Origin: Cetorhinus maximus
Lineage: Eukaryota
Assembly (NCBI RefSeq): GCF_964194155.1
Contig: NC_135889.1
Location: forward strand, 106,578,001-106,642,000
DNA length: 64,000 bases
Reading direction: 5' to 3'
Part shown: piece after piece, positions 1 through 64,000 of the stretch
Layout: each line of letters starts with the position of its first letter
Numbering within the stretch: the first letter of the stretch is position 1
The notes under the pieces: model-generated
Told to the model about the DNA's origin: nothing
The model's database searches: none
Seen by the model: the letters and a program-made list of their open reading frames with translations, nothing else
Program-made: the position numbers and the translations under genes

Positions 1-379
1 CTTAAAAGCAGCCTCGGAGTGACATCCCTCCCTTTCTGGCAGGGTCACCCAGCGTGCTTAACCTGCTGACTCATAAAGACTGGATTTTACTGTGGGTTTC
101 GGTACCCCAAGATGGCGACCAATTGGGGGCTCCCGAGCCCACAAATGCCAACAGCGAGACCTTCAGAGCAATATTCCAGAAGGCAACCCAGTTGGTTGCC
201 TCAGTGCTCCTCACTGAGGCTGGACGCTCAATCAGCAGACCAGCAGCTCTGCCACCTTGGCAGCCCCACCGGGAGAAGTAAGACACTATTGAGGCAGGTC
301 AGGGACCACAAGGGAAGTGCCAACACTGAGCAGCACAGACGGGCTCCACTGAAGACTCTCAAAATCAGCAGGGACATTG

Positions 380-3377: not shown

Positions 3378-5259
3378 AGGTGAAGGGTAAGACCAACAAG
3401 TCCAGGGAACCCTGGATGTCAAGGGATATAAAGGATTGGATAAGCTGAAAACAGCAGAAGCCCTAGAGGAGTATAGAAAATGTAGGGGGGTACTTAATAA
3501 AGTAATTAGGAGAGCGAAGAGGGGGCATGAAAAACACTGGCTGTCAAGATAAGGGAAAATCCCAAGGAATTTTATAAATATATTAAGGGTAAGAGGATAA
3601 CCAGGGAAAGAGTAGGGCCCATTAGGGAACAAAGTGGCAATCTGTGCATGGAACCTGAGGACGTAGGTGAGGTTTTGAATGATTACTTTTCATCTGTGTT
3701 CACTATGGAGAAGGACGATGTATGTGTAGAAATCAGGCGGGGGGATTGTGATATACTTGAACAAATTAGCTTTGAAAGGGAGGAGACATTAATGGTTTTA
3801 GCAGGATAAATCCCCAGGCCCAGATGGGATGTATCCCAGGCTGATATGTGAGGCAAGGGAGGAGATTGCAGGGGCTCTGACATTAATTTTCAAACCCTCT
3901 CTGGCCACAGGAGAGGTGCCAGAGGACTGGAGGACAGCGAATGTGCTACCACTATTCAAGAAGGGAAGCAGGGATAAACCAGGGAATAACAGGCCAGTGA
4001 GTCTAACATCAGTGGTAGGGAAAGTATTGAAAAAAATTCTGAGGAACAGGATTAATCTCCACTTGGAGAGGCAGGAATTAATCAGGGATAGTCAGCATAG
4101 CTTTGTCAGGGGGAGGTCATGCCTGACAAAATTTGAATTTTTTGAGGAGGTGACTAGTTGTGTAGATGAGGGTAGTGCAGTTGATATAGTCTACATGGAC
4201 CACAGTAAGGCATTTGACAAGGTCCCGCATGGGAGAATGGTCAAGAAGATAAGAGCCCATGGGAGCCAGGGCAATTTGGCAAATTGGCTTAGTGGCAGGA
4301 GGCAGAGGGTGATGGTTGAAGGTTGTTTTTGCGATTGGAAGCCTGTGACGAGTGGTGTATTGTAGGGATCGGTGCTGGGACCCTTGCTGTTTGTAGTGTA
4401 CATTAATGATTTAAACATAAATATAGGAGGTGTGATCATAAGTTCGCAGGTGACACCAGAATTGGTGGTGTGGTAAATAGTGAGGAGGAAAGCCTTAGAT
4501 TACAGGACGATATAGATGTGCTGGTAAGATGGGCAGAGCAGGGGCAAATGGAATTTAATCCTGAGAAGTGTGAGGTGATGCATTTTGGGAGGACTAACAT
4601 GGCAAGGGAATACACAATGAATGGTAGGACCCTAGGAAATACAGAGGATCAGAGGGACCTTGGTGTACATGTCCACAGATCCCTAAAGGCAGCAACACAA
4701 GTAGATAAAGTGGTTAAGAAGGCATATGGGATACTTGCCTTTATTAACCAAGGCATGTTGGAGCTGTATAAAGCGCTAGTTAGGCCACAGCTGGAGTACT
4801 GTGTGCAGTTTTGGTCACCGCACTATAGGGAGGATGTGATTACACTGGAGGGGGTGCAGAAGAGATTCACCAGGATGTTGCCTGGACTGGAGCGTTTCAG
4901 CTATGAAGAGAGACTGGGTAGGCTAGGGTTGTTTTTCTTAGAACAGAGAAGGCTGAGGGGGGACCTGATAGAGCTATACAAAATTATGAGGGGCATAGAT
5001 AGGGAGAAACTTTTCCCCTTAGCGGAGGTGTCAATAACCAGGATGGCATAGATTTAAGGTAAGGGGCAGGAGGTTTGGAGGGGATTTGAGGAAAATATTT
5101 TTCACCCAGAGGGTGGTTGGAATCTGGAACACACTGCCTGTGGGGGGCGGTAGAGGCAGGAATCCTCACAACATTTAAGAAGTACTTAGATGAGCACTTG
5201 AAACGCCATAGCATACAGGGCTATGGGCCAAGTGCTTAAAAATAGGATTAGAATAGATA

Positions 5260-5394
5260 AAAGCAAAATACTGCAGATGCTGGAAATCCGAAACAAAAGC
5301 AAAACCTGCTGGAAAAACTCAGCAGGTCTGACAGCATCTGTGGAGAGGAAAACAGAGTTAACGTTTCGAGTCCGTCTGACTCTTCATCAGAACC
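5260..5394 (-). mobile_element. Short Penelope-like terminal repeat inserted in the CR1 3'UTR
   Basis: aaaagcaaaatactgcagatgctggaaat...tcttcatcagaac family recurs across the window; flanked by AGATA at 5255-5259 and 5395-5399. Confidence 0.75.
5357..5393 (-). ncRNA. Minimal type I hammerhead ribozyme-like motif
   Basis: Minus strand reads GTT-CTGATGA-A-GAGTC(AGACG)GACTC-GAAA-CGTT-AAC: conserved core, 5-bp stem II, palindromic AACGTT in place of stem III, GTT/AAC stem I. Confidence 0.7.
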
Positions 5395-5525
5395 AGATAG
5401 GTGCTTGATGGCCGGCATGGACATGATGGGCCAAAGGGCCTGTTTCTGTGCTGTATAACTCTATGATTCTATGACTCTAACTGGTTGTCTAAAGAGACGG
5501 GACTTGTGGAGATTTAAGGAACAAG

Positions 5526-6659: not shown

Positions 6660-6938
6660 CAAATAAAAACAGAAAATGCCGGAAAAAACCTCAACCGGTC
6701 TGGCAGCATCTGTGGAGGGTGACAGAGAGTTTCAAGTCCGTATGACTCTTCTTCAGAGCTGAAGAGAGGTGGAAGAGAAGTGCCAGTGAATTAAGTGCTA
6801 AAGTAAAAGCAAAATACCGCGGATGCTGGAAATCTGAATTAAAAACAGGAAATGCTGGAAAAACTCAGCAGGTCAGGCAGCATCTGTGGAGAGAGAAACA
6901 AAGTTAATGTTTCAAGTCCATATGACACTTTTTCATTT
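6660..6938 (-). mobile_element. Two tandem Penelope-like terminal repeats with degenerate hammerhead motifs
   Basis: Copies at ~6660-6765 and ~6805-6935 match 5260-5394; the first keeps CTGAAGA-A-GAGTC...GACTT-GAAA on the minus strand. Confidence 0.7.
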
Positions 6939-7394: not shown

Positions 7395-8672
7395 ATAGGG
7401 CCTGCAGCTTTCCGGAGGCTTCCATTTAGCCTGGGTAAGAGTTCTGACATCTCCACTGGAGGCAGCTTCTCTGAGGAGGAAGGGAGGGATAGAATAAGGA
7501 GAAGGCCAGGACTGAACAATCAGCCTCCAGGGGTGCCACCTTTGGGAGGCCAGGCACAGGCACAAGGGGTGCAGGGCCAAGAGGTTGTCCAAGGTGGAAG
7601 GGGCTGCAGAAGACGCCACTTTCCTGCTGCCAGGGTATACAGGCGGCGAAGCAGCTACCTCAATATGGCTGAGGTGCAGTGCTGAAGGAGGCTCCGTCTC
7701 TCAAGCGAGACAGTCAACTATATCTGTCAGATCGTTGGCCCTGAGATCCCCCCTAACTGTGTGGGTGGACACCCCATGCCAGCAGCTCTGAAGGTCACAG
7801 TTGCCCTCAACTTCTATGCATCTGGCACCTTCCAGGGCTCGGTGGGTGATCTTTGCGGTGTCTCCCAATCAGCTGTACACACTTGTGTCAAGCAGGTTAC
7901 AGAAGCTCTGTTCAGACAGGTATTGACTTTCATCCACTTCCGCTGTGACCAGGCAAGCCAAGCACAGCGAGCCAGAGGCTTCGCAGCCATTGCTGGATTC
8001 CCCCGTGTCCAGGGTGCTATAGACTGTACACATGTGGCCATCAAGGCGCCAGCAGGTGAGCCCGGTGCCTTCGTCAACAGGAAGGGCTTCCACTCCATGA
8101 ACGTGCAGATAGTGTGTGATCACAGGATGCAGATTCTGCAAGTCTGTGCAAGGTACCCAGGCAGCTCCCACGATGCCTACATCCTCAGACACTCCCAGGT
8201 GTCGGGGCTCTTCAGTGCTCCGGCTCGGCTGGATGGGTGGCTGTTGGGTGACAAGGGCTATCCCCTCAGAAGGTGGCTCATGACGCCTCTCCGTCATCCA
8301 AGAACAGAAGCTGAGCAGCGGTACAATAGGAGCCACAGCACCACAAGGGCTGTGGTGGAGAGAGCCATCGGCCTTCTCAAGATGCGCTTCCATTGCCTGG
8401 ACCGCTCAGGGGGCGCACTCCAGTATCCCCCAGATCGTGTCTCAGTGATAGTGGTAGCATGCTGCGCTCTGCACAGTCTTGTGCTGGAAAGGGGGGATGC
8501 AGTTGACGATGAAGAACTTGACACCCAGGATGAGGCTGCACATGATGAATCCAGCAGTGGCTCAGAGGATGAGGAAGCACAGGGCGATGATGAGGGGCAG
8601 CACGCCGACCGGCAACTACACCAAGGAGGCAGGGACACCCGGGACAATTTAATCCAACGGACCTTCAGCTAG
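7395..8672 (+). pseudogene. Harbinger transposase (HARBI1-like, DDE_Tnp_4), near-intact with one in-frame stop
   Basis: ORFs 7356-7685 and 7761-8672 share a frame, split by TGA at 7683-7685; catalytic motifs GAIDCTHV, LLGDKGY, VERAIGLLKMRF; acidic C-terminal tail. Start position approximate. Confidence 0.92.
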
Positions 8673-8980: not shown

Positions 8981-11900
8981 CTAAGGTGCCTTATGCTTAC
9001 GTTTGTGGGTGCTACATCTTGGTGCCGTCCCATCGCTTGGAGTGGCTTGTGAGACAGCCTGCTGACTCTGCTGTCCTGTTGGCGTCGATGACCTTGGCGG
9101 CCGTCCTCTGGCCCGTGGAGTCTGTGCTGGCCCCGCCTGGGAGGGAGTGGCCAGTTCCAGAACTGGCACCACCCCAGTTGTCGCAGCCTCAACAGATGCA
9201 ATGGTCACTGGCAGAGGGGCGTAGGAGCTGCTGCCCTCATCCGGAGTGCCCTGAGAGGAGCTCGCAGCGACGACAGGCAGCCTCTGCGCCGACGTGAGGT
9301 CACATTGGAACTCCCTGCTCACCGCAGATGGATGGGCACCGAACGGCGACACTTGGTGCCCAGAACATCTCCCACATTGGGAATGACCACGTGTGGCCAT
9401 TACCGCTGTGAGGGCTTGCAGGTCAGAGCGTAACCCAATCAGATGATTCTCAATCTGTTGGAAGCCCCTCCCCATGAGAGTCGCCAATCTCTCAGTGGAG
9501 GAAGCCTGAAGCTCTGTCCTGAGGTTCATGACTTCACTGACACTCTGCCTGGATTCCTCCATCACAGAGACCAAGTGAAGCACAGCCTCATACAACCCTG
9601 CCAGATGTTCCCGCGCACCGGGCCGCTTGCCCTGCAGCTACTGCATTGGTGACATCTCCAGAGGCACATCATCACTGCTAGACTCAGCATGTGCCTGGTC
9701 CCCTGCAGTCCTCCAGCTACTGGCGCCATCGACACTCTCTGTCCGTGCCATCTCCTCCAGCGATTGTGAAATGCTCTCTCCACTGTGCCCCAGGACACTA
9801 GCCGACATCATAATCCCCAGTGATGTGGTAGTCGCTGCGCTGGTGCCTGGCTCACTGAAATGATGTGACGCAAGTTGCGAGTGATGTCCCTCAGGTGTGG
9901 AGCGTTCAGTCAGTAACACCTTTCATCCCTTTCCCCCCAGCCTCATAATGTGCTCAACCTTCAAGAACCTAAGGAGACGAACATTGGTGGGGTGGTAAAT
10001 AGTCAAGACATACAGACAAGCTGGTCAGATGGCCTAAGGAATGCCACATGGAATGTTACGTGGATAAGTGTTCGGTTAAGCACTTGGGCAAGACAAGCAA
10101 GGTACGGGAATACATGAGTAATGGTAGGACCGTGGAAAGTCACAACGATTACAGGGACCTTGCTGGGCAAACCCGTTAAGGTAGCAGAACAGGAACATAA
10201 GGCGTTTAACAAGGTCAAAGCCAGACTTGCCTTTATTAGCCGAGGAATAGAATGTAGGAAAAAGGAGGTCATATTGCAAGTGCAGAAAACACTGTCGAGG
10301 CCACATCTACACTTCTGCGTTCAGTTGTGACCTGAGCTTCATGGGAGGGATGGCATTGGAATGGAGAGAGTGCAGAGGTTCCTGATCTGGATGCATGCTG
10401 GCCTGGAGAGTTGGAGCTATGAGGAAATATTGCAAACACTTGTGACATTTGCCGTAGATCACAGGAGATTGACAGCTCACATTATCGATCTTCATACTGT
10501 TATGAGGGGCATAGACTGGGTGGACAGAAGGCAAAATTCCCTTTGACTAACGTGGTGGCATTTATTTAAGCTGAGTGCCATGAGGTTGACAGGTGAGGTG
10601 CTGAGCACCTTATGGACAGAGTAATGTGGGACACACTGGCTGAAAGGGTGGTGGAGGTACAAACCCTCCTAAGATGCAAAACGTCTTTGGATGTGCAGCA
10701 GCGATGCCATGGCATGTTAGGCCATGGGGATAGTGGTCACAAATGGGATAAGGCGACTTTGGAAGGTGCTAGAGACGCACATCCTCAAGGGACCGAGGGA
10801 CGTTTGCATATGACCCACACGTCTGATTGTATCAGTCTGTGAATGAGCAGTGTTGCTGCATTAATGATTGCAGCAACCATCAGTGGGTTGGATGGTGGGG
10901 AGACAGAGTGGATGGGACTGGCCCTCAAATACCTGGCCGCTGCACCCCAGCCTAACCGACACCTGCCGATCTGGCCGCTTGTCTCCTCCCCAGCTCCATG
11001 ACCTGCTCCTCATATGTGGTGAGGCGCTGCAGCGCAGCGTGCCCACCACCAGTCCACAAACACTCCCGGCTATTGTGCTCTGTTTTTGCCTGCAGAACAG
11101 AGAAGAGCATTTATTGAGGCTGATCGCTCATGTACTCTGCACCCGCACACCGCACCCCAACCACAGTGGCCCATCTGAGGCCTCCAGCGGCTCCGTCCAC
11201 ACTACTGGTGATCAGTCCCCAGAAGATAGTACGGCTGGTCCCAACCCCCTCCCCCAACGGACATCTTGGACACATTCGGCATCCATCACTTTGAATAACA
11301 CATGGGCCTTAGCGCCCATGGCAAGGAGGTGCAACTAGGTGCGGCGCCAATGCCAGCAGATGGCTCTTGGCCACGACACCTTGAGGCTCCCCTTCCACCA
11401 TCTCATCACCATCAATAAGACATGTGTTGGAGTTCTGAGTATGTGTCTAGCTGCCTCTCCTGCAGGTTGCCCCCAGACTACTCAAATGCGACAAACACCA
11501 ACATATGCTGTGGGGAGAACCCATCTTCTCCTCAACCACTAAGGCTGCTGCAAACAAGGTCACTATCTGTTTGCCCACCCAGCGTATGCCAAGTGCCCAA
11601 TGCAGTAACGACACTAAGACGTGAGCAGGGAGTGGGGGAGACCTCAAAGGCTAAGGCTACCTGCTAGGTTAAATGGCCAAGGCTGACATGGTACTCACCC
11701 TTCCAGAGCGCAACGAATCATTGAAGCACTTGCGTCACTGGGTTCTTGTTCGCTGCACAGGATCTTGAGAGCTGACGACCTCCGCCACCTCCTGCCACGC
11801 CTGCCTGGTCACATGGGGGGCCCTCCTCCTCCCATCCTCAGGGAACAACACCTCCCGACGTTTTGACACCTCTTCGAGGAGGGCAGCAAGGCAAGCATCG

Positions 11901-12002
11901 GCGAACCGAGGGGCACATTGGCCCAGCCGCTGGCCTACCCTGGAGCCTGCTCCCCTCCTCCTCCTCTGCCCTGACCTCCTCTGCAGCCCAGTCGCTGGCC
12001 AT
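8981..12002 (-). pseudogene. Harbinger Myb/SANT-like DNA-binding protein gene (NAIF1/MSANTD-like), 3 exons, disrupted
   Basis: Exon 1 ~12002-11699 (APRFADACLAALLEEV...AWQEVAEVVSS...Q*RKCFNDSLRSGR|gtgagt); exon 2 11089-10933 (ctgcag|AKTEHNSRECLWTGGG); exon 3 9968-8981 ending PRCSTHKRKHKAP; stops and frameshifts present. Confidence 0.85.
9985..10830 (+). mobile_element. Highly diverged CR1 3' fragment inside intron 2 of the H1 Myb/SANT gene
   Basis: LAFISRGIECRKKEVILQVQKTLSRPHLHFCVQL, MERVQRF...SYEE and WDTLAERVVE correspond to the CR1 ORF2 C-terminus. Confidence 0.8.
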
Positions 12003-13236
12003 GGTGAACAGCTAAAGGAGGCTGCCTGGCCTTTCTTTATACAGACTGCCTGCTCCCCATTGGAACCGGCAGTCTGTACACGCCTGCCGCACATTTGAAT
12101 TTCCTGCTGTACACGGGAGTCCGAAACGCGCTGGTCGGGCCTTAATTGGCCCACCCGCACAAAATGGCGGCGCAGCCCGCTTCGCCGGCGGAGATCATCT
12201 ACGCACCCACCGCCAATTGGGTTGGGCCCGCCCATCCAACAAACGTAAAATTCTGCCCTAAATCTCCTCCAACCATTCCACTGTTGTGACTCCCAGTTCA
12301 ATATTGCTAACATCTTGCATGTAGCCACCTCAGGCTAGAACTTTCTTGGTTCTGGTATTTTTTAACTCTGGAGTCTTGCATCTAAAACTCTCTCTCTCTT
12401 ATCAGCTTGTCTATGCCTAGAAGTTCAACTCACTGTTACGATTCCTTCAGTTAACAAGAGGTTTAAACACTTTTTGCCAGCATACAGAATTTCAGATGAA
12501 CTCTGCTTGAAAGAGATGTCTCCTGCAGCAAGCTTGTTCTAAACTGAAAATAAAAACCTGCTTCAGACCAGAACCACACCCATAATCCACCCACCCCTGT
12601 AGTTAACTTCATGTTGACCCTTTGTTATTCTATTCCTTACCTCTGCGGCAACTTGGCCAAATGATCAGTTGTGTGAAGCCAGATGCTTTACCAGAAATCA
12701 CCTCCTACAAAAACCTAGTTTTTAAAGAGGCCATCATACCAGCATAAAGCATAGGCTCTTCCGCCAAAGCATGTAGGCCATCACAATTGGAAGACTCTCC
12801 CCACATTGGCAGGGAGGAGGCAGCCTGATAAAAAGCTGAGAGGAGCTTGAAACTTCGTTAAGGCAATACGTATGCAGGAAGCATGGTGTAAAGTTAAAAT
12901 ATGTCATAAGGTATATTTTGGTTGTGTTAGCTAATGGGGAAGTACCTTTTCTTTAGTTTGATGTATTAGTTGCCTGTTAAGTAATGTTTAGTTTATGTTA
13001 ATTTTAGTTTGTTTGTTGCCGAAAAAGTCTTAAAACATGAAATCTTTTCCTTCGGCCATTTCTGTTGGTTGCTGGGGAATTAATCTCTTCTGAAAAGTTA
13101 TCAGCCTCTTTGGAGATGGTAACATACCTCAGAGCAGTATTAAAGGAATGTTGTTGCATGGATGATGAGCCAAGGTCCTGTTCTGCTGGTTTAGGGGAAC
13201 CATTACAGCATTTAAAGCCCTCCTAAATAAAAACAG

Positions 13237-17400: not shown

Positions 17401-17574
17401 TTCAATGCCCATTCACCCAGTATACATTTAACCAGCTACCGATCAATAAATGTTGTCCCAGGGGCACTGCTGTTTCAACAGAGGGAACACATTGCTTGAT
17501 TGGCAGTTCTTTCTCTCTGACCTATTATGTCAATTACACAATGTTTATTTACACAAGATAAAGAAGTTTCAAGT

Positions 17575-17765
17575 TAAAAGCAAAATACTGCAGATGCTGG
17601 AAATCTGAAACAAAAACAAAAATAACTGGAAAAACTCAGCAGATCTGATAGCATCTGCGGAGAGGAATACAGTTAACGTTTCGAGTCCATATGAAGAGTC
17701 ATACGAACTCGAAACATTAACTGTATTCCTCTCCGCAGATGTTGCCAGACCTGCTGAGTTTTTCC
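17575..17765. mobile_element. Foldback Penelope-like insertion with 19-bp TSD
   Basis: agataaagaagtttcaagt at 17556-17574 and 17766-17784; ~60-bp inverted arms ~17626-17686 and ~17707-17767. Confidence 0.85.
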
Positions 17766-18714
17766 AGATAAAGAAGTTTCAAGTGCCTGCAGTTTCTGCT
17801 ACTGATACTTTCAAGGGTCTGGATGATTGACACTTTTATAGTGCTGTAGTAAAAGCAGTTTTTTTTATGAATAAATGACTGTTTTTTAAAGCTTTCTCAC
17901 ACAGGCTATGGTTACTATAGGGTTCAGTGACTCTGTATAGATTGTATACTTGTATGAGAGGCCTTTCGGGGAAGGGTGGGGAGGGGTTATAGGTTGGTAA
18001 AGGGACATTGGTAAGGTCTTTTGAACTTACCTTTCAAAAGATTGCCTCATCCAGACTATGGTTCACAACACCTCTGACAGGCCATGAACCACCAGCCCTT
18101 GAAAAGCTGGCCAGACTCCTTGAAAATTGTGAAGGGCTAGGAGATACCTATCCCCGCAGTGGAGCTGGCCAGGCTGGGATTGCTGACTCGCGACCCGCAC
18201 CTGCCTGCACCCTTATCCCACACTGGTGAAAATTTGGGGCGCCGGGAATGGGGTTGAGAATCCCGAAATTTGGTCCCAGCCGCATGGAGTCTCCCCGATG
18301 CTGTAAAAATCCAGCCCATAATCCGGGTGACTCTTCACTGAGTGAGTGCTATACTGATGGAGGTACTGTCCTTCAGGTGAAACATAAGGCCATGTCCGCG
18401 GAAACGGATATAATTGATCCATGGCACTATCCCCCAGTCATCACAACCCAAAAATCATTATCAGGCAGTTTACTTCACTGTTGTTTGTGGGTCCTTGAAG
18501 TGTGCAAGTTGGCTCCTACTTTACCCTACATGGCAATTGCACCTAAACTTCAAAATTACCTCATCGGCTGCAAAGAACTTTGTGAAATCCTCAGGTGAAT
18601 GGTGCTACGTCAAAGGATATTAAGGGAGCAATGCTAATATTGGTGCTATTTCCACACTACCTGTAGCATCCAAAACTCTGTTTCCTATGCCTTTATTTGT
18701 ACCAAATTACATTC

Positions 18715-31790: not shown

Positions 31791-33959
31791 AGGGAAATTC
31801 GTGAGCAAAATTGCTTTGAGTAGCTGAGCATAAACCTAGCAATGTATTAAACTTAAGATTTAAATATTTGTACAGGCACCAACATCAAGAAAAGTGTGGG
31901 GTGGGGGGTGGGGGTTGCAGAGGTGGGCAAAGGCCTCAGGGGTAATGCAAGCTCAGCTTAACTAGCCTTTTCCCAAAAAACTGTTTAAATCCAACAATAT
32001 AAAACATAAAAAAAACTCTCCTTACTGGTGTAAAACCTCTCCTACGCCCTCGGGAGGAAATAGTACTCAATCTGCAGGCAGGTGGAGTTTGATTTCTGTC
32101 AGTTCTGACTTACATCCTGGAATGTTAAACCGAAGGGAAAAGGATGTTCCTTCTTTGAAAATGGGGGCGGGGATAGGGGTGCAGGACACATACCATGATC
32201 AACTGTCAGCACACTAATCGTGGAGACGCTGGATGCGGATTTACGTCGGGGATTCTTCCCAGTTGATTTTTTTTTAAACACACAGCACCTACATGAGCAT
32301 GCTGCACATCAGGACATGACTATCAGTCAGAGCAGGTTGTTTGTTCATTTAACTAGATACCATCTGTTTGCCAGATTCAGATCAGCACACTATGGTGTAT
32401 GTGATTAAAATACCTCCCAAAACGGCAACAGCTGTCAAACAGAACATTCATCTTGCTCCTTTGAGTCTATCCTGGAATCACTGCGATCCACAACTCCTGT
32501 AATACAACGTAAGAATGCAAAGTTTCAAATAACATAGTTATATGTTTTGCAATTCATATTTTAATCATTTTTTGATCAGGAAGTAATAACACACTACTTT
32601 CCGTTTCAGCCCATTTTGTGAGATTTATTACGCAGAAGATGACAAGTCTTTCTTTACTTGCAGAGATTTTATAGTCCCAAAGTACTTTACTGCCAATTTT
32701 GTTTCATCCATGGGAACAATGTTTACCACATATTAAAATATATCCCCTGACTTACAAGGAATTGCACTGCAATAATTGCTGCAAAAAATGTTCCAAAACA
32801 AAGGCAAAAATGTCACTGCTCCTCACATTTCATCCCACCTGCTTCCGGTTTACCATCTTATCTCCAATCTTTTCTATCACATACAACATGATTCCACCAC
32901 CAAACACATCAGTCCTGAACTCCCATGGAGGTTGTAACAGCCTCTTGCCATAACTCCAGCAGAATAATGACATCGCCAGCGAAACTGTGCAAATGATTGG
33001 AACAGCCAAATGCACCAATTTCCTTGGGGTGGGGAGTTCACCAATGTCTTCAATTCCTTTCCTCTCCTCTCTGCTTTCTTGAGGAACTGTTCTCTCCCTG
33101 ACAGTTTTGCCCTTTTACCAATCCAAGCTCCGGCTGCCCCTTCCCCTGGTACTTGCCGATGCGAACACCTGCCCAATCATCTCTTCCCATGCCATTACTC
33201 AAAGCCACAATCACTGCCTCTATGTGAGATAGCATTTTGGATGTACTTCCTACAATCTAATGCACTGCGGCCCAGAAATTTGTCACAGCTGGTCCCATTG
33301 CACCATTATTACTCCATTGTTTGAAGTAACATTGCCAGGGCAGAACTAGCTCTGAGGTATTTTCTGCTCTATTTTTACTGTGTATGGTGCAGTTTACTTT
33401 GCATAAGGAAGAGCAAATATGATTAGATAACCACTTTGCATAAAACCTATCTGTTGAAGCCACTCTCATTAGCCCCTCCCATGTTTCAATAAAGATCAGT
33501 GATGGCATAAGGAATGACATTTTCATCTTCCTTTCTCATGGAGTGAGGAGCGCTCAACTTTTATCTCACGGACATTTTCCAAGCTGAAACAGTGGACTGA
33601 AGCAATATCAACCATTCCCTCATAGGTCAGGTCGCCAATAATATCTTCAGGGAAGTCAGAAAATTCACCCGTTTTGCAACGATACCCAGGTAGCAATGAG
33701 AAATGGCTATTCATTTCTATCATGTTGCTGGATTCCCCAGAGTTCAGGGGCAACAGCAACATCCAGGGTGCGCCATGAGCTCTTATTTTGGAAATCTTGA
33801 CCTTTCCTGTATAGAAAGGCACTCCACTCCCTCAATTTCAAATAAGCTGTGACCGGCATCAATGAAGCCTGCATGTCAATGCCAGATTTGCAATGAGTTG
33901 TTACAGGAAGGCATTGAATTAGTCAAACCTTGAGGTACAGTTTGGAATTTCAAAAGGTT

Positions 33960-38647: not shown

Positions 38648-38785
38648 AGTTCTGACAAAAGGTCATCAACCTAGAACATTAACTCTATTTCTCACTCCAC
38701 AAATGCTGCCAGACCTGCCGAGTGTTTACAGCATTTTCTGTTTTAATTTCCAATTTTCAGCAGGCACAGTATTTTGCTTTTGTAT
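38648..38785 (+). mobile_element. Penelope-like terminal repeat, decayed, opposite orientation to 5260-5394
   Basis: gttctgacaaaaggtcatcaacctagaacattaactct...cagtattttgctttt; partial copies also at ~41478-41540 and ~62495-62585. Confidence 0.7.
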
Positions 38786-40651: not shown

Positions 40652-42753
40652 GGTCAATGAAGAAGACCAAACTGAGCTACTGCTTTTTCTTTCCTGTGAG
40701 ATGAGCAGTCTCCATTCACAAATGTCACAAATCAGATGTACTCTTTACCTTGTTGACGAGCGTTAGTCTCATTGAAAATTTCTCTGTATTCCTGATGATG
40801 AACATATTTTAGTGATGTCATATACTACTATGTGCAAAGCAGATGAGGAACAAAACAGTTTTTAATATTTTGATTGGAAGTCACTGGTATTCACAGTTTT
40901 AAATGACAAGACACAAATTAAAGGGAATCCTCAAGCGAGACCCCAGTTGTCTGTCCTTTTATTTCTCCACCTTGTTCTCCTACTGACCTATCCTGTTCCA
41001 ATGAAGCTCAATGTAAGACCAGGGAACAGCAGCTCATAGGAACATGGGAGCAGGAGTAGGCCATTCGGCCCATCAAGCCTGCTCCCCCATTCAATTAGAT
41101 CATCTAGCTCAATGCCACTTTACTATGCTAGCCCCAAATCTCAATGTCATCTTTCAATTGACTTCACAGCCTCCTGGACTCAATATTGAGTTCACCAATT
41201 TCAAACCGTAATTTCTGCCTCCATTTTCTTTTCTTTGCATGTTTTGGTTCTATTCTTATTTTCCCTTTGTTTTTGCTTTCAGACAACAGCTGTTCCTCTT
41301 ACGTCTTTCACACCTCCTTTAGGCACAAGTTTTGTTACTTTACTCCTTTCATTGCTACTCGCTTTGGCCAGAAATGTTTGCCAGGAACATACACAGCCGG
41401 CCAGCGGACATGCCTCACCCTGTTTCTCGCTCCCTTGTTGTGATCCTGCCTCATATGGGCTGGAAAAATTCTCCTCATGTTTCTCTCTCCACCTATGCTG
41501 CCTGACTGGTATGAGCATTTCCAGCATTTTCTGTTTTCAATACAGGTAAAAGGGAGGTTGAGTTTCACTGAGAGATACACGAGGCAGAATTTCCTCCCGT
41601 TTACAGTGAGCGTCTTTGGCGGCGTGAGCAGAAAATATCACGAGGTGGCCCTGTTCGCGTTTCGCAGCAACTTAAGCCCAGGATGTGATTCCCGCCCCCC
41701 ACTTCGTCAGTGCTGGGCCACGTTTCCCACTGTCCAATATTGGTAAGTTAATTTTATTGCATTTGCATCTCATTATCATGCCCGCACACCGGAATCAACC
41801 CCCCACTTCAAATTTAATTCTCACGTCGGCGTGACTTCAGAATGGCGGGATTTACGCCTGCTTTTTAAAGGCATGCACCTGGCGAGCTGAGCTTCAAGGG
41901 GAACTCGAGGTGAGTGCGCACAATCTCGCGCAGCGCTTGCGAGGATCACCCGTAGGACATCAAGGAAGAGGCGCCGCGCAATCAGGGATGGGGCACAGGC
42001 AAGTCACTTTTCCCCAGCTGGCTTTCAGTGCAGTGCCGGGGCAAGGGCTCCAGTGTGGGTGGGGCCGGGAGGGATGGATAGTGAGGGCAAGGCTGCACAG
42101 GCTGATGGAAGTACACAAGCACATGCCGGGGTCGGGGGGAGGAAGAGGTGGGGAGACCGTTCAGCAGCAGCTCCATTGACATGCTTGGAGCCGGGCCTCT
42201 GAAGCTTTTCTGCCCACTCAAGCAACGCAAAAGCATGCAAGTGCCACCAAATGCTTCAGAACTTTGCACCTCTCGGGCGCAGACTGCAAATTAATGTGAC
42301 TTTTAGGGGGCTGCAGAACAATTGGACGACTGGGCAAGTTGTAGAGCCCTTTTGCGAAAGCTGGACATGGAACAGGCACTGATGGAGGCACCCTTGCAAT
42401 GTATTTATTCAGGCTTAGAGCAGTAACCCTTATGATTCAAGCCAACAGTGCAGCTTTGCAGTGCAGGTTAGGATAATACCTGCAACCGAGCTGAGAACAT
42501 AGCATGCAGTCAAGTAGCCAAACCTGCCGTCAATCGGGCAAGTGGAGTGGGGCGGAGGTGGGTGGGGTTTTGAATAGCCATGAAGCGCACTAAATACTGG
42601 CCATCCAAGTGGTGGTCAGCACTCTTTTGCTGCATGTGAAGGGGCCTTGAGATGCAGCAGGAGTTGGAGACATAACCAAGAGAGGCCCTTAGGAAACAAA
42701 TGCTAACCCACGCATCATTCTCTTTGATCCTGCAAGAGCAGAACACCAGCATC

Positions 42754-43940
42754 ATAGAGCCTGGTGATCTAGCTGTGTGCCTCATGGCTTACAGGGAGCA
42801 GAGAAGAAGGAGAAGATTACGATAGAAGTAGCTGGCTCAGCAAAGGGAGGAGGACCACCCTCAAGCTGAAGGAGTGGCAGGGCCTCCTCTGGCGGCAACT
42901 GAAGGTCCACAGCGAGCTGTTGCTCTTGGGGGCCTCGCTAGACCCAGGGCCTACAGACGGCGCTTGCCATTTCTGCAGATGAGTGAGAACCAATGTCGCC
43001 AAAGACTGCGCATGTCTAGGGAACTGGTCAGTCACATATGCCACCTTCTGCAGGATTTAGCACCACAGGGACTTGGAGTGTGTCCACTGCCAGTGGCAGT
43101 GAAAGTGACCATTGAGCTCAATTTGTATGCCAGTGGCTCCTTCCAGGGCTCCACAGGTGACCTGTACAGGATCTCGCAAGCCTCCACCCACAAATGAATC
43201 CAGGAGATTACAGATGCCATCTTCGCGAAGGCACTGAACTTTAATTTCAATTGGGATCAGACAAGCCAGGAAGTAAGAGCGCTGAGATTTGCGGAGATCT
43301 CTGGTTTTCCACAGGTGCAGGGCGCCATCGACTGCATTCATGTGGCGCTTAGATCTCCATGGCAACAAGCAGTCCAATATGTCAACCGCAAGGGCTTCCA
43401 CTCACTGAATGTTCAGCTGATCTGTGACCACAACAAATGCATCCTACAGGTCTGCGCACAATACCCCGGAAATGTCCACAACTCCTACATCCTCAGCAGG
43501 TCGCAGATCCCTGACATCTTCCAGGGTTCAGGGAGGCTGAAGGGTTGTCTCCTTGGGGGACAAGGGCTACCCACAGGGGACATGGCTGATGACACCCATT
43601 CAGCAGCCTCAGACTGCAGCAGAGAGATGGTACAACAAGGCTCACACCGCAACCCAGACTTTGGTGGAGCACACAATTGGCATCTTGAAAATGAAGTTCC
43701 AGTGCCTCGACAGGTCTAGTGAAGCACTCCAGTACAGTCCCCAGAGGGTGTCAGGTATCACTGTAGTTTGCTGCATGCTACACAATCTGGCACCGCAATA
43801 GGGGGAGGACCTGGCTGGGCAGGAAATGGAAGGGCTGCATGTCTCCTCCGATGAGCAGGATATTGAAGTTGTGTTCAGGCTCATGTCATTGAAACACAGC
43901 AGGGGCCCTAATAGTCGCAAGATTCCAGGAGGATGATGAC
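42754..43940 (+). pseudogene. Harbinger transposase, disrupted
   Basis: LPVAVKVTIELNLYASGSFQ, GAIDCIHV, YVNRKGFHSLNVQLICD, GDKGY, VEHTIGILKMKFQCLDRS; stop at 43195 and frameshift near 43555. Ends approximate. Confidence 0.9.
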
Positions 43941-53249: not shown

Positions 53250-56200
53250 TCAGGAGCAGTCCATGCCCAAATGCAGCAAAACCTGGGTAATATCCAGGCT
53301 TGGGCTGACAAGTGGCAAATAACATTCATGCCACAAAAGTTGCAGATGGTTACTGCCTGGCACAAGAGAGAATCTAACCATTTCCCTTTGGCATTCAATG
53401 GCATTACCATTGCCAAATCCCCCACTATCAACAGCCTAGAGGTTACCATTGACCAGAAACTGAACTGGACTAGCCGTATAAATACTGTGGCTACAAGAGC
53501 AGATCAGAGGCTAAGAATCCTGCAGCGAGTAACTCACCTCCTGACTCCCCAAGGCCTGTCCACCATCTACAAGGCACAAGTCAGGGGTGTGATAGGATAC
53601 TCTCCATTTGCCTAGATAAGTGCAGCTCCAACAACACTTAAGAAGCTTGACACCATCCAGGACAAAGCAGCCCGCTTGATTGGCAACCCATCAATAAACA
53701 TTCACTCCCTTTACCACGCAGTAGCAGCAGTGTGTACCATCTACAAAATACACTGCATAAACTCATCAAGGCTCCTCAGGCAGCACCTTCCAAACCCAAG
53801 CCCACTGCCACCTAGAAGGACAAGGGCAGTAGACACATGGGAACACCACCGCCTGCAAGTTCCCCTCCAAGCCACTGACTATCCTGATTTGGAAATATAT
53901 CGTCATTCCTTCATGGTCGCTGGGCCAAAATCCTGGAACTCCCTCCCTACCAGCACTGTGGGTGTACCTACACCATAAGACCATAAGACACAGGAGCAGA
54001 AATTAGGCCAATTGGCCCATTCCGTCTGCTCCGCTCTTCAATCATGGCCGATAAATTTCTCAACCCCATTCTCCCGCCTTCTCCCCATAACCTTTGATCC
54101 CCTTACCAATCAAGAACCTATCTATCTCGGTCTTAAGTACACTCAATGACCTGGCCTCCACAGCCTTCTGTGGCAATGAATTCCATAGATTCACCACTCT
54201 CTGGCTAAAGAAGTTTCTCCTTATCTCTGTTCTAAAAGGTCTTCCCTTTACTCTGAGGCTGTGCCCTCGGGTCCTAGTCTCTCCTACTAATGGAAACATC
54301 TTCCCCATGTCCACTCTATCCAGGCCTTTCGGTATTCTGTAAGTTTCAATCAGATCCCCCCTCATCCTTCTAAACTCCATTGAGAAGAGACCCAGAGTCC
54401 TCAAACCTTCCTCATATGTTAAGACTTTCATTCCTGGGATCATTCTCGTGAACCTCCTCTGGACCCTTTCCAGGGCCAGCACATCCTTCCTGAGATACGG
54501 GGCCCAAAATTGCTCACAATATTCTAAATGTGGTCTGACCAGAGCCTTATAAAGCCTCAGCAGCACATCCCTGCTTTTATATTCTAGTCCTCTCGAAATA
54601 AATGCTAACATTGCATTTGCATTCCTAACTACCGACTCAACCTGCAAGTTAAACTTAAGAGAATCCTGGACTAGGACTCCCAAGTCCCTTTGCACTCCAG
54701 ATTTCTGAATTCTCTCCCCATTTAGAAAATTGTCCATGCCTCTAATCTTCCTACCAAAGTGCATGACCTCACACTTGCCCACGTTGTATTCCATCTGCCA
54801 CTTCTTTGCCCATTCTCCTAACCTGTCCAAATCCTTTTGCAGCCTCCCCGCCTCCTCAATACTACCTGTCCCTCCACCTATCTTTGTATCATCTGCAAAC
54901 TTAGCCAGGATGCCCTCAGTTCCTTCATCTAGATCATTAAGTGAAAAGTTGTGGTCCCAACACTTACCCCTGCGGAACTCCACTAGTCACCGGTTGCCAT
55001 CCTGAGAAGGACTCCCTTATCCCCACTCTCTGCCTCCTGCCAGACAGCCAATCTTCTATCCATGCTAATACCTTGCCTCTAACGCCATGGGCTCTTATCT
55101 TACTGAGCAGCCTCCTGTGTGGCACCTTGTCAAAGGCCTTCTGGAAGTCCAAGTAGATAACATCCATTGGCTCTCCTTTGTCTAACCTACTTGTTACCTC
55201 CTCAAAGAATCCTAACAGATTTGCCAGGCATGACCTCCCCTTGATGAAACCATGCTGACTTTGCCCGATTTTACCATACACTTCCAAGTATTCTGAAATC
55301 TCATCCTTAATAATGGACTCTAAAATCTCACCAACGACCGAGGTCAGGCTAATCGGCCTGTAATTTCCTGTCTTTTGCCTCACTCCCTTCTTAAACAGGG
55401 GGGTTACATTAGCGATTTTCCAGTCCTCTGGGACCCTCCTTGACTCCAGTGATTCCTGAAAGATCACCACTAACGCCTCCACTATCTCTTCAGCTATCTC
55501 CTTCAGAACTCTGGGGTGTAATCCATCTGGTCCAGGTGATTCATCCACCTTCAGACCTTTCAGTTTTCCTAGCACCTTCTCCTTGGTAATGGCCACCATA
55601 CTCACCTCTGCCCCCCGACTCTCTTGAACTTTGGGGATGTCACTCGTGTCTTCCACTGTGAAGACTGACGCAAAGTATCTATTCAGTTCCTCCGCCATTT
55701 CTTTGTTCCCCACAACTACTTCTCCAGCGTCATTTTCCAGCGGCCCAATGTCCACTTTTGCCTCTCTCTTACCCTTTATATATCTAAAAAATCTCATGCA
55801 ATCTTCTTTTATATTACTGGCTAGTTTACCCTCATATTTAATCTTCTCCCTCCTTATTTCTTTTTTAGTTGTCCTCTGTTGGTCTTTGTAGGCTTCCCAA
55901 TCCCCTGGTTTCCCACTGCTCTTCGCCGCATTGTACGCTTTCTCTTTAGCTTTTATGCTGTCCCTGACTTCCTTTGTCAGCCATGGTTGCCTCGTCCTCC
56001 CTTTAGTATGCTTCTTCTTCCTAGGGTTAAATTTTTGCTGTGTCTCCCAAATTACTCCCAGAAACTCCTGCCATTGCTGTTCCACTGTCTTTCCTGCTAG
56101 GCTCATCTCCCAGTCAATTCTGGCCAGCTCCTCCCTCATGCCTCTGCAGTTGCCTTTATTCAACTGTAATACCGTTACATCTGATTCCAGCTTTTTCTTC

Positions 56201-56310
56201 TCAAATTGCAGGGTAAATTCTATCATATTACACCACAGGGACTGCAGCGCTTCAAGGGAAATTAAGGATGGCAATTAATGTTGGCCTGGCCAGCGACTCT
56301 CACATCCCAT
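53250..56310 (+). mobile_element. CR1/L2-group LINE 3' portion, split by a younger CR1 (53250-53975 and 56229-56310)
   Basis: MQQNLGNIQAWADKWQITF...IYKAQVRGV; sequence resumes after the insertion through ggcctggccagcgactctcacatccc. Confidence 0.82.
53976..56228 (-). mobile_element. Young 5'-truncated CR1 LINE with near-intact RT
   Basis: ORFs 54964-56274 and 54060-54983 (YLDFQKAFDKVPH, SGVPQG, KFADDTK, RPHLEYC), split by one frameshift; (tcttatgg)n tail; TACACCA at 53969-53975 and 56229-56235. Confidence 0.96.
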
Positions 56311-61009: not shown

Positions 61010-64000
61010 TGTATTTTACACTGATATCATTGTCAGCAGGTATTGTAAAGTAAACAAGATGCTGAGAGTCACTTTGTGAGGCAAGTTTCGGAAGGTAAGC
61101 TGGAACCAGAACATTATTGGAAGGCAACATGAGTTATAGCAATAGGTCACTGTTCTTCACTGCAAGGCCCTCAAGCCAGTGGCGGCTCCCATCGACACTA
61201 AGTGCAGCTCCCCGGCTCCATCCATCCATTTTCAGTAACCACTTTATCCTCAGAGGGTCACAGCGAGCCGGCACCCAGCCCAGCATTATATTCTTATTTA
61301 TTTTGTTTTTAACATTAAAAAATGTGTACCCAGCCTATCAACAGTCAGCCTTCCTTCCATGTCACGTTGACCACATGGTATAATGTGTGCCAATACATAT
61401 ATCTAAGTATGTGCATTGTATAGTAACAGTTATATTGCCATAGCAACCACCATAGAACTAGCAGAGTATTCAATCATTGGTGTCGTGTATATTTTTGGCC
61501 CAAGTGAGTTACTGGGTTAGTAAGCAATGATATTTTAGTAATCGTTGTGGCTCTCTCACTGCAGGTTTTTTGCTAAAGTGGCCCTTGCTTGAAAAATTGT
61601 GAAGAAAACTGCACTAGGTGTTACATGCTGCAATGTGTAAACCTCAAATCAAAAATACAAGCTTTTCGAAATTTAAACACAACTTTGCAATCATAATCTT
61701 GCAACCATGCATATCTTTCAGGGTAGCCATTCTGTTATTGTGGCTTTATTTCAGGACTTGTTAGCTTCTTACTCTAGAAGAGATCTTTGCTGGAGGAAAT
61801 GGTCTTCTGTTGAAAACACATTTATTTACATACTACCTATTTACAAAGGTTAAGTAAGATTAAGACATAGCTGGAGCGACTCAAAGATCTGACACACTCA
61901 TCTTCCTTCAGTGAGTGACATCACTTTGATATAGCTCCTTAAGCACATGCTCAGTAACTATCATTAGAGTTAACCCATTATTCTGCGGGCATCTGAGCTG
62001 ATTTTTCCCTTTAATGTAAATTGAGTAAATTCTCAGCATTGGCAGTCTCTCAGCATTGAGGAATCCGGCCTGTGTTGCAATTTGAAATTCAAAATTTCGA
62101 CACAAACTGCTCAAATTCCCAAATGATTTATTAATAACAAAACACATTTAGACAACATTCCCTCTGGCTGTTAATTTATTGAGTGTTGGCATTTTCATGT
62201 GCTAATTATTACACAGCACAATTGCACCCCAAAATTGGCCACAAGTATGGCTGGTGTGGGAAAAGACATGTCAGTGACTTTACTGGTGCATAACCCATGT
62301 GACCTTGTGAGTAACTCGCTGCATAGTGATTTTAAGACCGTACCTACCCCATCTTATACCTATCCTGGAAACTTGTTTTTGTCTAGAAAAAATGAGTTGC
62401 AGTAACCAAAACTGATCAGCACAAAGCAAAAGCAGCAAAACACTCAACAGTCTGAGAGGAAAAAAAAGAGTCATCTGATTCAAAATACTAATTCCGTTTT
62501 TCTCCCGACAGCTGCTGCCAGACCCACTGAGCTTTTCCAGAACTTTCTGTCTTTATTTCAGAGTTCCAGAATGTGCAGTATTTATATTAACAAATATAAA
62601 AGAGTTGAAGTCCTAATAAACTGTTAAATTTCTTTATTTTATATCCATTGAGCCAAATTTGAATAAAATCATTTGTAGCTCACCCGAACGAAATTGTGCA
62701 ATCCTGGATCTATTAGAAAGGCTTTATTTTACTTAGTGCAACGTTTTTTGTAATTAATTAAAAGCTTTTCATTTTATGTTAACATTGTCTTATTGTTAAC
62801 TGAGTGTTTGAAACATATTGGAGCCCATTACATCCAAACCAATTCCATACCAATAGAGTTCCTACAGAACCAAAAAAGTTTGTAGTTTACAGCACAGAAG
62901 GAGGCCATGCATGTCTGTCTGATTCATTATTAAACTAATCCGAAATGAATCTCCTTTTTCCCCATATCCTTACATCTTCCTGTAACTGTTTGTAACATTC
63001 TTAAAGTCATATTTAAAAGTATTTTGCTGTAACACATAAGATAACCACTCATCTGAGCTAAATTATTCAGTGCAGTGCAACAAAATTAAATTAAGATGCT
63101 TTTTCCTAAATATTTCATGAAGTATAACAGCATTCCTCTATACCCCACAAGTCTGTATCTCTTTCTGTTGAGAACATTAAACTTGACAGAAATTAATATG
63201 CAAACCATTGCCCTTTCCGAACTTACTTAAATAACCCACAGCTCTAAACAGATTCAGTGTTTGAAGTCTGTTACGCAAAGCTGCATTCATCCTTGGCTCT
63301 GCCCTCAAAGCAGAAATGAAGCATCTGCACAATTTTCAAACCAATATGTGTAAAAGCAATTCACCTTCTCGGGTGCCCAGGAGACACTAATGTCTCTTAA
63401 GTTTCCAGAGCCCAAGCTCCTGTGCTTTCAGTGAATGTACTGCAGAGTTTCCCTCAAGGCTTCAGGACTAATGTGAAGCTGTCAGGATGATCTTGTGTCA
63501 AATATCAGCTCTTTCAGGGGCAATGCTGGGAGCACGTTCATTCCTGACATTTTTATTTTAATTGTAAATGCAAATTTTGCTGCATTCTTCGAGCTGTTAT
63601 ACAATTTTCTGGTTATTTTATTTAAAATATAGCGGGGACTTTGTGGACTGAAACCATAATTTCATTTATAGAGAGCGTATTAACAATTTTGCCACATGAA
63701 ACTCACAGAAGAAGTCTTGCTCTTGTGTTTAGCATTGGTTGCAGAATCATTAACAGTAACCGCTATTTAATGGCAAGAAAGAGCTTGCCTCTGTCTGGCA
63801 CTTTTTGTGGGTCAGGATACCCCAAACAGCCTCACACAAAAAGAAGTACCTTTGAACTTTAGCCATTATTGTAACGCAGGGAAATGCAGCAGCCAATTTT
63901 CACACAGCGAAGCAGCACAATTCAGATAAAGACTAGCAATTGAGAGTTGCCTCCCCAACAGATCTGACACTATCAGCCCATTGCTGTTAGAAGAGAAGGC

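What the first reader, a model, noticed from the sequence alone, without database searches (positions are those of the whole stretch)
5260..5394. SINE-sized mobile unit carrying an intact minimal hammerhead ribozyme core
Seen: a 135-bp insert with a 5-bp duplication whose minus strand has CUGAUGA, a perfect 5-bp stem II, GAAA, and a palindromic AACGUU with no stem III loop. Known: Penelope-like elements carry minimal type I hammerheads that fold as dimers. Seen: about seven related short copies in 64 kb, mostly sharing the AAAAGCAAAATAC end, with no Penelope ORF in the window. Inference: an abundant non-coding, ribozyme-bearing, retrozyme-like family that could cleave transcripts it lands in. 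This is one of the best candidates for a poorly described system here.
Basis: partly seen in the sequence, partly recalled or inferred. Interest (0 to 1): 0.7.

Follow-up and report, generated by a model that had tools for sequence, protein, structure and literature searches.

The report
Hammerhead-bearing tip of Penelope retrotransposon
This 135-base insert is the leftover end of a very common jumping gene of the known Penelope type and carries a small RNA motif predicted to cut itself only weakly; it is mostly ordinary, except that such short leftovers tend to begin at one point, which likely marks where the jumping gene's RNA starts.

Summary
In detail: 5260-5394 is a 135-bp insert with a 5-bp duplication in the tail of a LINE, and its minus strand carries a complete minimal type I hammerhead motif. 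The interpretation mostly fails. The sequence is the 3' terminal module (pseudo-LTR end) of a ~3.3-kb Penelope-like element of the same genome. Nineteen of the 30 closest copies run on into the element's body, which encodes RT, a CX4CX2C linker and GIY-YIG. Full-length copies are module-ORF-module partial tandems. Short copies form no separate lineage, and no array of intact hammerheads was found, so this is not a retrozyme or SINE family. Stem II is kept across subfamilies (94% of cells paired, some compensatory changes). One feature is not random truncation: 5' ends pile up at the first bases of hammerhead stem I (4- to 14-fold excess) and none fell at the predicted cut site. Most likely reverse transcriptase primes inside an uncut RNA and runs off its start. 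The scan noted this same reading earlier on other DNA of this genome. Cleavage and the RNA start are untested.

The parts
5260..5394 (-). 3' terminal module (pseudo-LTR end) of a Penelope-like element, inserted alone
   Evidence: Same module ends long copies carrying RT and GIY-YIG remnants and flanks full-length ORFs on both sides; empty-site test
5356..5394 (-). Minimal type I hammerhead motif: stem I 5394-5391/5359-5356, core 5390-5384, extra A 5383, stem II 5382-5378/5372-5368, GAAA 5367-5364, loop-less ACGU 5364-5361, predicted cut between 5360 and 5359
   Evidence: Sequence; pair counts over 47 distinct copies
5274..5340 (-). Predicted 3' stem-loop (CAGAUGCU/AGCAUCUG closing an inner hairpin), likely near the sites where reverse transcription starts
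   Evidence: Centroid fold, whole-module z -1.64, 13 of 200 shuffles as good; role inferred from PMC11167929
5260..5292 (-). Optional ~33-base tail, absent from a second class of 3' ends
   Evidence: 3' ends in the unbiased sample: 32 of 61 within 3 bases of the full end, 20 of 61 short by 27-49
5255..5259 (+). AGATA, left copy of the 5-bp duplication; also equals the element's own continuation on the minus strand
5395..5399 (+). AGATA, right copy of the duplication
3802..5460 (+). Host: decayed LINE (RT remnant 3802-5051; CR1-like is a recalled label) whose 3' tail received the insert in antisense; end approximate
   Evidence: RVT_1 E 9e-13; translation; empty sites
6660..6936 (-). Direct partial tandem of two related modules joined by the element's ~30-base continuation; both cores broken
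17557..17785 (.). Head-to-head inverted pair of modules (one with tail, one without) flanked by a 19-bp duplication; source of the spurious mir-999 Rfam hit
38648..38780 (+). Older solo module, core degenerate
40937..41546 (+). Decayed 3' end of a related Penelope-like element: GIY-YIG remnant 40937-41208 followed by a tail-less module 41441-41546
62466..62583 (+). Older solo module, core lost

Best explanation
The insert is the 135-bp 3' terminal module of an abundant ~3.3-kb Penelope-like retrotransposon of this genome, likely written into a LINE tail when the element's own reverse transcriptase primed inside an uncut element RNA and likely ran off that RNA's 5' end at the first bases of the hammerhead. 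Shown: the module ends long copies that carry RT, linker and GIY-YIG sequence; it flanks full-length ORFs as direct partial tandems; it has two alternative 3' ends about 33 bases apart; it often has an inverted partner at its 5' side; 5' ends pile up at stem I and not at the predicted cut site. Inferred: the GIY-YIG nuclease nicks AT-rich DNA; RT starts at one of two internal sites about 100 or 67 bases downstream of the cut site, as shown in vitro for an anole element; priming at the downstream module of a long RNA gives long, randomly truncated copies, while priming at the upstream module leaves only ~135 bases to copy. The hammerhead likely serves the parent element (slow, dimer- or protein-assisted processing); a solo copy like this one is likely close to inert as a ribozyme.
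For: 19 of the 30 closest genomic copies continue past the hammerhead into a shared body, up to >=1.45 kb within the fetched flank. That body translates to RT (KPADKGG, YIDD; RVT_1 E 2e-5), CNRRRCNTC linker and GIY-YIG (E 2.4e-4). 8 of 20 copies found with an N-terminal query have a direct upstream module; 7 of the 8 loci fetched in full are module-ORF-module with a 3.3-kb unit. 19 of 52 top-hit copies have an inverted partner at the 5' junction; 18 of 52 have a 7-15-bp duplication. Short (27) and long (25) copies: short-short distance 0.061, short-long 0.059, long-long 0.054; no diagnostic column after correction; 3 of the 8 copies nearest to this one are long. 5' ends, in profile positions where 103 is the cut site and 138 the first base of stem I: unbiased 784-kb sample, 41 young copies, 12 end at 126-150, 0 at 101-110, excess over 151-400 of 5.8-fold (p 6e-5; 4.5-fold, p 0.002 without the window); 29 copies found with the last 91 bases only: 20 end at 111-149, 0 at 101-110, 0 at 151-200; 138 is the commonest single value. 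The stretch around that point is YYAGTT in several subfamilies, which fits an initiator (consensus recalled). PMC11167929: internal RT start at two sites, tail between them, uncut RNA is the main substrate.
Against: Pfam scores are below the curated cut-offs (24.8 vs 29.6; 21.8 vs 22.6 bits), and the 838-codon frame gave no Pfam hit. None of the 8 loci fetched in full has an uninterrupted ORF. A fixed RNA start at stem I predicts upstream repeats of ~135 bp, yet 5 of 7 are 288-821 bp, which needs template jumps, read-through or circular RNA. In Drosophila Penelope the start lies about 120 bases upstream of an intron end that maps to helix I (PMC2377424, PMC4209133); the same YAG here follows a pyrimidine tract and could be a splice acceptor. 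The short/long label test was weakly non-random (permutation p 0.037). The 91-base query came from a short copy, which may inflate the 14-fold figure. No RNA end could be read.
Confidence: 0.85

Rival explanations
1. Same parent element, but the short class arises because RT stops or switches template at this point on a longer RNA: a folded or protein-bound hammerhead, or splicing factors bound on the pyrimidine tract and AG just upstream of stem I. (Confidence is for this step only; it is compatible with the identity above.)
For: Pyrimidine tract plus YAG abuts stem I in all three main subfamilies seen; the Drosophila Penelope intron ends at helix I (PMC4209133). Upstream repeats of full-length copies usually extend far beyond this point. 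Many inversion junctions fall here.
Against: A stall at a cis hairpin should fall on its 3' side (about position 100-112), where no young copy ended (0 of 41 and 0 of 29 at 101-110). Short copies carry no shared upstream exon. No GT..AG joint to this position was among the joints shown (lists were cut).
Confidence: 0.3
2. An independent non-autonomous SINE-like or retrozyme-like family: a short master RNA, possibly circular, is copied in trans by the Penelope protein.
For: A discrete size class with clean duplications exists; one direct dimer lies in the window at 6660-6936; vertebrate retrozymes are reported to derive from Penelope pseudo-LTRs, with one cartilaginous fish among the carriers (10.64898/2026.07.22.740005).
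Against: Short copies are no more alike to each other than to long ones; short copies occur in several subfamilies that also have long copies; among 70 modules in 784 kb only 2 direct neighbours lay within 600 bp, and neither pair has two intact cores, against 8 inverted neighbours.
Confidence: 0.08
3. The copy is an active monomeric ribozyme, kept or used by the host to cut transcripts.
For: It is the only one of 8 window copies with an intact core.
Against: It is young (94-96% identical to many copies), and 24 of 46 such top hits also have intact cores, so intactness needs no selection. No stem III can form in a monomer; the double-hammerhead fold of two 45-base copies scores -11.9 against -22.1 kcal/mol for the best dimer fold. 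Single minimal motifs showed no detectable cleavage in vitro (PMC4209133). It lies antisense in a decayed LINE among other repeats; no host protein family was seen among 26 long open frames scanned.
Confidence: 0.03

Closest known systems
Minimal hammerheads (min-HHR) in pseudo-LTRs of metazoan Penelope-like elements (Cervera and De la Pena 2014, PMC4209133)
   Same: Type I core without helix III loop, extra base between 9 and 10.1, G10.1-C11.1 pair, palindromic 15.2-16.2, short helix I; mostly solo copies tied to truncated elements; thousands per genome.
   Different: Far more copies here (rough extrapolation ~350,000 modules); 5-bp helix II; the pile-up of 5' ends at helix I is not described in the parts I read.
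EN+ Penelope-like elements of the Neptune/Nematis type (Craig et al. 2021, PMC8557442; Adineta elements, PMC3846280)
   Same: RT then CX2-5CxxC linker then C-terminal GIY-YIG; DKG motif; partial tandems; inverted 5'-truncated partner; optional 30-40-bp tail; solo pLTRs; duplications of about 8-15 bp.
   Different: Clade not fixed by a tree (Neptune versus Nematis untested); whether this family is already in Repbase or Dfam could not be checked.
Poseidon element of Anolis, PAc (Frangieh et al. 2024, PMC11167929)
   Same: Two RT start sites a tail apart, roughly 70-100 bases downstream of the hammerhead cut site; uncut RNA as template; both strands extended.
   Different: In PAc the ORF starts inside the hammerhead; here the likely ATG lies about 40 bases after the module. 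PAc lacks the linker. Junctions here show a mean of 2 bases shared between target and element in 11 copies, whereas PAc priming was described as non-homologous.
Non-LTR retrozymes of vertebrates (bioRxiv 10.64898/2026.07.22.740005)
   Same: Non-coding, hammerhead-bearing, derived from Penelope pseudo-LTRs; monomers dispersed.
   Different: Defined by tandem units that each hold a complete hammerhead; none found here.

Membership tests
EN+ Penelope-like element (parent of the insert) | RT followed by C-terminal GIY-YIG nuclease in one ORF | tested here: met
   Order and motifs; Pfam RVT_1 and GIY-YIG hits below curated cut-offs; every copy seen is interrupted
EN+ Penelope-like element (parent of the insert) | Partial-tandem pseudo-LTRs of variable length | tested here: met
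   7 of 8 loci fetched in full, direct repeats 78-821 bp; 8 of 20 in the N-terminal search
EN+ Penelope-like element (parent of the insert) | Inverted 5'-truncated partner and optional 30-40-bp tail | tested here: met
   19 of 52 with inverted partner; two classes of 3' end
EN+ Penelope-like element (parent of the insert) | RT groups with Penelope/telomerase RTs in a tree | not tested
   No reference set at hand; PDB sequence search empty
Neptune/Nematis type | CX2-5CxxC linker before GIY-YIG | tested here: met
   CNRRRCNTC or a close variant in 6 of 8 loci by pattern; definition from PMC8557442; does not separate Neptune from Nematis
Minimal type I hammerhead of PLEs | Core CUGANGA/GAAA/UH, extra base after A9, G10.1-C11.1, palindromic 15.2-16.2 | tested here: met
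   definition from PMC4209133
Minimal type I hammerhead of PLEs | Helix II kept by compensatory change | tested here: met
   94.4% of cells paired, 3 of 5 pairs with a change on both sides; covariation score reached by 1 of 500 shuffles, but the number of covarying pairs by 185 of 500; relatedness not controlled
Minimal type I hammerhead of PLEs | Self-cleavage as a dimer | not testable with these tools
   Predicted dimer fold is not the lowest-energy one
Rfam hammerhead families | Covariance-model match | tested here: not met
   No hammerhead family among 1 match and 7 matches at E<=10; expected for a motif lacking helix III
Non-LTR retrozyme | Tandem units each with a complete hammerhead | tested here: not met
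   2 direct neighbours among 70 modules, neither with two intact cores; only 784 kb sampled
Non-LTR retrozyme | Unit-length circular RNA | not testable with these tools
   Only assembled contigs were offered
SINE / non-autonomous family | Lineage of its own, apart from the autonomous element | tested here: not met
   Distances and columns; low power on 108 bases of 52 copies
SINE / non-autonomous family | Discrete 5' end | tested here: met
   Pile-up at stem I, spread over about 25-40 bases
SINE / non-autonomous family | tRNA-, 7SL- or 5S-derived Pol III head | tested here: inconclusive
   No such Rfam match; A/B boxes not scanned

The most novel reading that the evidence does not exclude
The element's RNA starts at the very first base of the hammerhead, so each ~135-bp stub carries its own start site, ribozyme and RT priming sites. 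Stubs could then be re-transcribed and re-copied in trans at low rate, a SINE-like life cycle constantly reseeded from the parent, and the hammerhead would act as a switch that removes the cap from the element's own message. Hundreds of thousands of genomic stubs would map a Penelope RNA start by DNA alone.
Probability: 0.2. Interest if true: 0.55.

Novelty: new member of a known kind. Interest (0 to 1): 0.22.

Why it matters
As a family it is a further, very abundant example of a known class (about 3.4% of six sampled 100-kb blocks). What could matter is the non-random 5' end: the role of the hammerhead in Penelope-like elements and the source of their templates are open questions, and a sharp class of stubs that start at stem I and avoid the cut site supports uncut RNA as the template in vivo and names one base at which to look for the RNA start.

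Tried and rejected
Rfam scans found no hammerhead; the mir-999 hit at 17650-17743 is the inverted pair. Two own-genome searches with the 3' ends of other subfamilies returned no candidates, which the tool says shows nothing, so the 5'-end-neutral sample comes from one subfamily. Sequencing runs: only assembled contigs, RNA mostly by guess; two layings showed pieces of the element in all runs but no start, end, strand or splice joint that can be read; I draw no claim on expression. PDB sequence search of the RT frame: 0 hits. Protein atlas: no answer for this sequence. The microhomology count had an off-by-one error and is replaced; that result (mean 2.0 against 0.95 shuffled, 11 of 18 duplications abutting the end) is partly circular and is not relied on. 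The idea that only short copies keep the continuation after the 3' end was rejected: both classes do. A cap-derived extra G (GGTTCTG in 4 of 11 short against 1 of 19 long top hits) is too weak to use. Cleavage run-off as the source of short copies was rejected. Lunse et al. 2017 was not held and is known only through a review. Papers seen: PMC4209133 and PMC11167929 parts 1-2 of 4 (results and discussion); bioRxiv 10.64898/2026.07.22.740005 parts 1-3 of 5; PMC8557442, PMC2377424, PMC3846280, PMC6765202, PMC6155905 passages only; PMC7151607 abstract. No supplements were read; those of the preprint (closed) and of PMC4209133 may list this family. Searches for a shark Penelope hammerhead or for a pile-up of 5' ends found no paper on it; Repbase and Dfam could not be searched.

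Full report
Observation. The minus strand of 5394-5356 reads GGTT CTGATGA A GAGTC AGACG GACTC GAAA C GT T then AACT. This is a type I hammerhead with a 5-bp stem II, a 4-bp stem I with one G-U pair, no stem III loop, and a predicted cut after GUU between 5360 and 5359. The insert is real: 3 of 3 other copies of the host LINE tail that match both flanks lack it and show a net gain of 135 bp plus AGATA. The host is a decayed LINE on the plus strand (RVT_1 E 9e-13 at 3802-4362), so the hammerhead is antisense to it. The 5-bp duplication equals the element's own next bases, so it may be partly microhomology. The window holds 8 related modules at 6 sites; only this one has an intact core. Rfam has no model that matches it.

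What it belongs to. The window lies in a 3.99-Gb animal genome; that it is a shark is my recall and an earlier scan note, not a test. A search with the insert gave 3309 candidates, 40 scored, 30 fetched at 93-100% identity. Nineteen of the 30 continue past the hammerhead into a shared sequence, by 20 bases up to at least 1.45 kb. That sequence translates to the thumb region of an RT, a CNRRRCNTC linker and a GIY-YIG motif. Further searches (13,059 and 4652 candidates) gave frames with KPADKGG and YIDD (RVT_1 E 2e-5) and GIY-YIG (E 2.4e-4), both just under Pfam's cut-offs. Of 20 copies found with an N-terminal query, 8 have the module directly upstream. Of 8 loci then fetched in full, chosen for reaching the 5' end, 7 are module-ORF-module with a unit of about 3.3 kb and direct repeats of 78-821 bp. 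None has an uninterrupted ORF; the longest stop-free frame (838 codons) leaves the coding frame before the nuclease. The likely start codon lies about 40 bases after the module. Among 52 distinct top-hit copies, 19 have an inverted partner at the 5' junction and 18 have a 7-15-bp duplication. 3' ends fall in two classes about 33 bases apart. These are the described marks of EN+ Penelope-like elements, and the linker points to the Neptune/Nematis type (PMC8557442, passages). The window itself holds a GIY-YIG remnant at 40937-41208 in front of one of the modules.

Abundance. A profile of the module gave 70 hits in 784 kb of unselected DNA, 52 of them in six 100-kb blocks away from the window (3-14 per block), a rough 350,000 genome-wide. 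The family covers 3.4% of those blocks.

Is the hammerhead real? On 48 copies from that sample (the other 21 rows did not cover the motif in register and were left out), stem II is paired in 94.4% of cells and 3 of its 5 pairs change on both sides; 1 of 500 shuffles reached the covariation score, but 185 of 500 reached the number of covarying pairs, and relatedness is not controlled. Only 7 of the 48 have a full canonical core; among 36 rows with CUG in register, position 6 is A in 18, U in 9, C in 6 and G in 3, while A9, A13, A14 and A15.1 hardly vary. This copy has A6. Folding does not favour the active form: the double hammerhead scores -11.9 against -22.1 kcal/mol for the best dimer fold. 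Single minimal hammerheads of Penelope-like elements showed no detectable cleavage and dimers little (PMC4209133); the anole motif cut only with its protein, and cutting was not needed for insertion (PMC11167929).

Is the short class a family of its own? On the last 108 bases, 27 short and 25 long copies are intermixed: short-short 0.061, short-long 0.059, long-long 0.054; the best single column (p 0.007) does not survive correction; the permutation test was weakly non-random (p 0.037); 3 of the 8 copies nearest to this one are long. Among the 70 modules only 2 direct neighbours lie within 600 bp, neither with two intact cores, against 8 inverted neighbours. The retrozyme definition (tandem units each with a complete hammerhead; bioRxiv 10.64898/2026.07.22.740005) is not met.

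The one non-random feature. In profile positions, 103 is the cut site and 138 the first base of stem I. Of 41 young copies in the unselected sample, 12 end at 126-150 and 0 at 101-110; ends per base at 111-150 exceed those at 151-400 by 5.8-fold (p 6e-5), 4.5-fold without the window (p 0.002), 4.4-fold over all 61 copies. Of 29 copies found with the last 91 bases only, 20 end at 111-149, 0 at 101-110 and 0 at 151-200; 138 is the commonest value. Profile ends overshoot by a few bases, and inverted junctions are counted with plain ends. So short copies are not made from cut RNA and are not purely random truncations.

Mechanism. Shown: identity, architecture, two 3' ends, pile-up. Inferred: as in the anole element (PMC11167929), the nuclease nicks DNA and RT starts inside the RNA at one of two sites. 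An RNA that begins at the YYAGTT at stem I (initiator consensus recalled) and holds two modules would give long, randomly truncated copies from the downstream module and ~135-bp stubs from the upstream one; priming on both strands gives the head-to-head pairs such as 17557-17785 with its 19-bp duplication. I put this run-off step at about 0.55, a stop at a bound or folded site or at the splice-acceptor-like AG at 0.3. Against run-off: 5 of 7 upstream repeats are much longer than 135 bp, and in Drosophila the start lies upstream of an intron that ends at helix I (PMC2377424, PMC4209133). RNA data could not decide.

Known and new. The class, the motif and the mass of solo copies are in print (PMC4209133). 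Four searches found no paper on this family or on the pile-up, but repeat databases and supplements were not seen. The scan's own notes on other DNA of this genome reached the same reading and the position-6 variants; I had noted both the identity and the pile-up before looking, and those notes are not independent support. Verdict: real feature, new member of a known kind, interest 0.22.

Noticed in passing
alignment A1; e.g. L067 both modules, L098:5525-5576, L134:3589-3640, L090:1528-1579: Successful subfamilies carry non-canonical cores CUGUUGA, CUGCUGA, CUGCCGA or CUGGUGA (position 6 is not A in 18 of 36 rows) while the rest of the core and stem II are kept; A6C is a known natural variant with altered metal preference (PMC7151607, abstract). 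Earlier scan notes cover this.
   Followed up: partly
window 17557-17785: Head-to-head pair of modules with a 19-bp duplication; folds as a long hairpin and scores as mir-999 (E 2.8e-7, below gathering), a likely source of false miRNA calls and of double-stranded RNA.
   Followed up: partly
window 6660-6936 (-): Direct dimer of two modules joined by the ~30-base continuation of the element; both cores broken.
   Followed up: partly
window 7686-8672 (+), 11735-12334 (-), 43198-43719 (+): DDE_Tnp_4 frames (E 4e-40 and 4e-11) and a Myb/SANT-like frame on the opposite strand: Harbinger-type DNA transposon remnants (label recalled); the first has a 328-codon open frame.
   Followed up: no
window 54060-56274 (-): LINE RT remnant with 436- and 308-codon open frames (RVT_1 E 6e-17).
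   Followed up: no
window 32820-33268: Weak match to Penelope-like linker/GIY-YIG region (E 6e-5) with no module found next to it; possibly an older family.
   Followed up: no
L031 (G000:C14:60031000-60040000): Two 5'-truncated copies of different subfamilies (82% identical) lie in direct orientation about 430 bp apart.
   Followed up: no
11 top-hit copies with duplications abutting the 3' end: The duplicated target shares a mean of 2 bases with the element's own continuation, hinting at microhomology in priming; control imperfect.
   Followed up: partly
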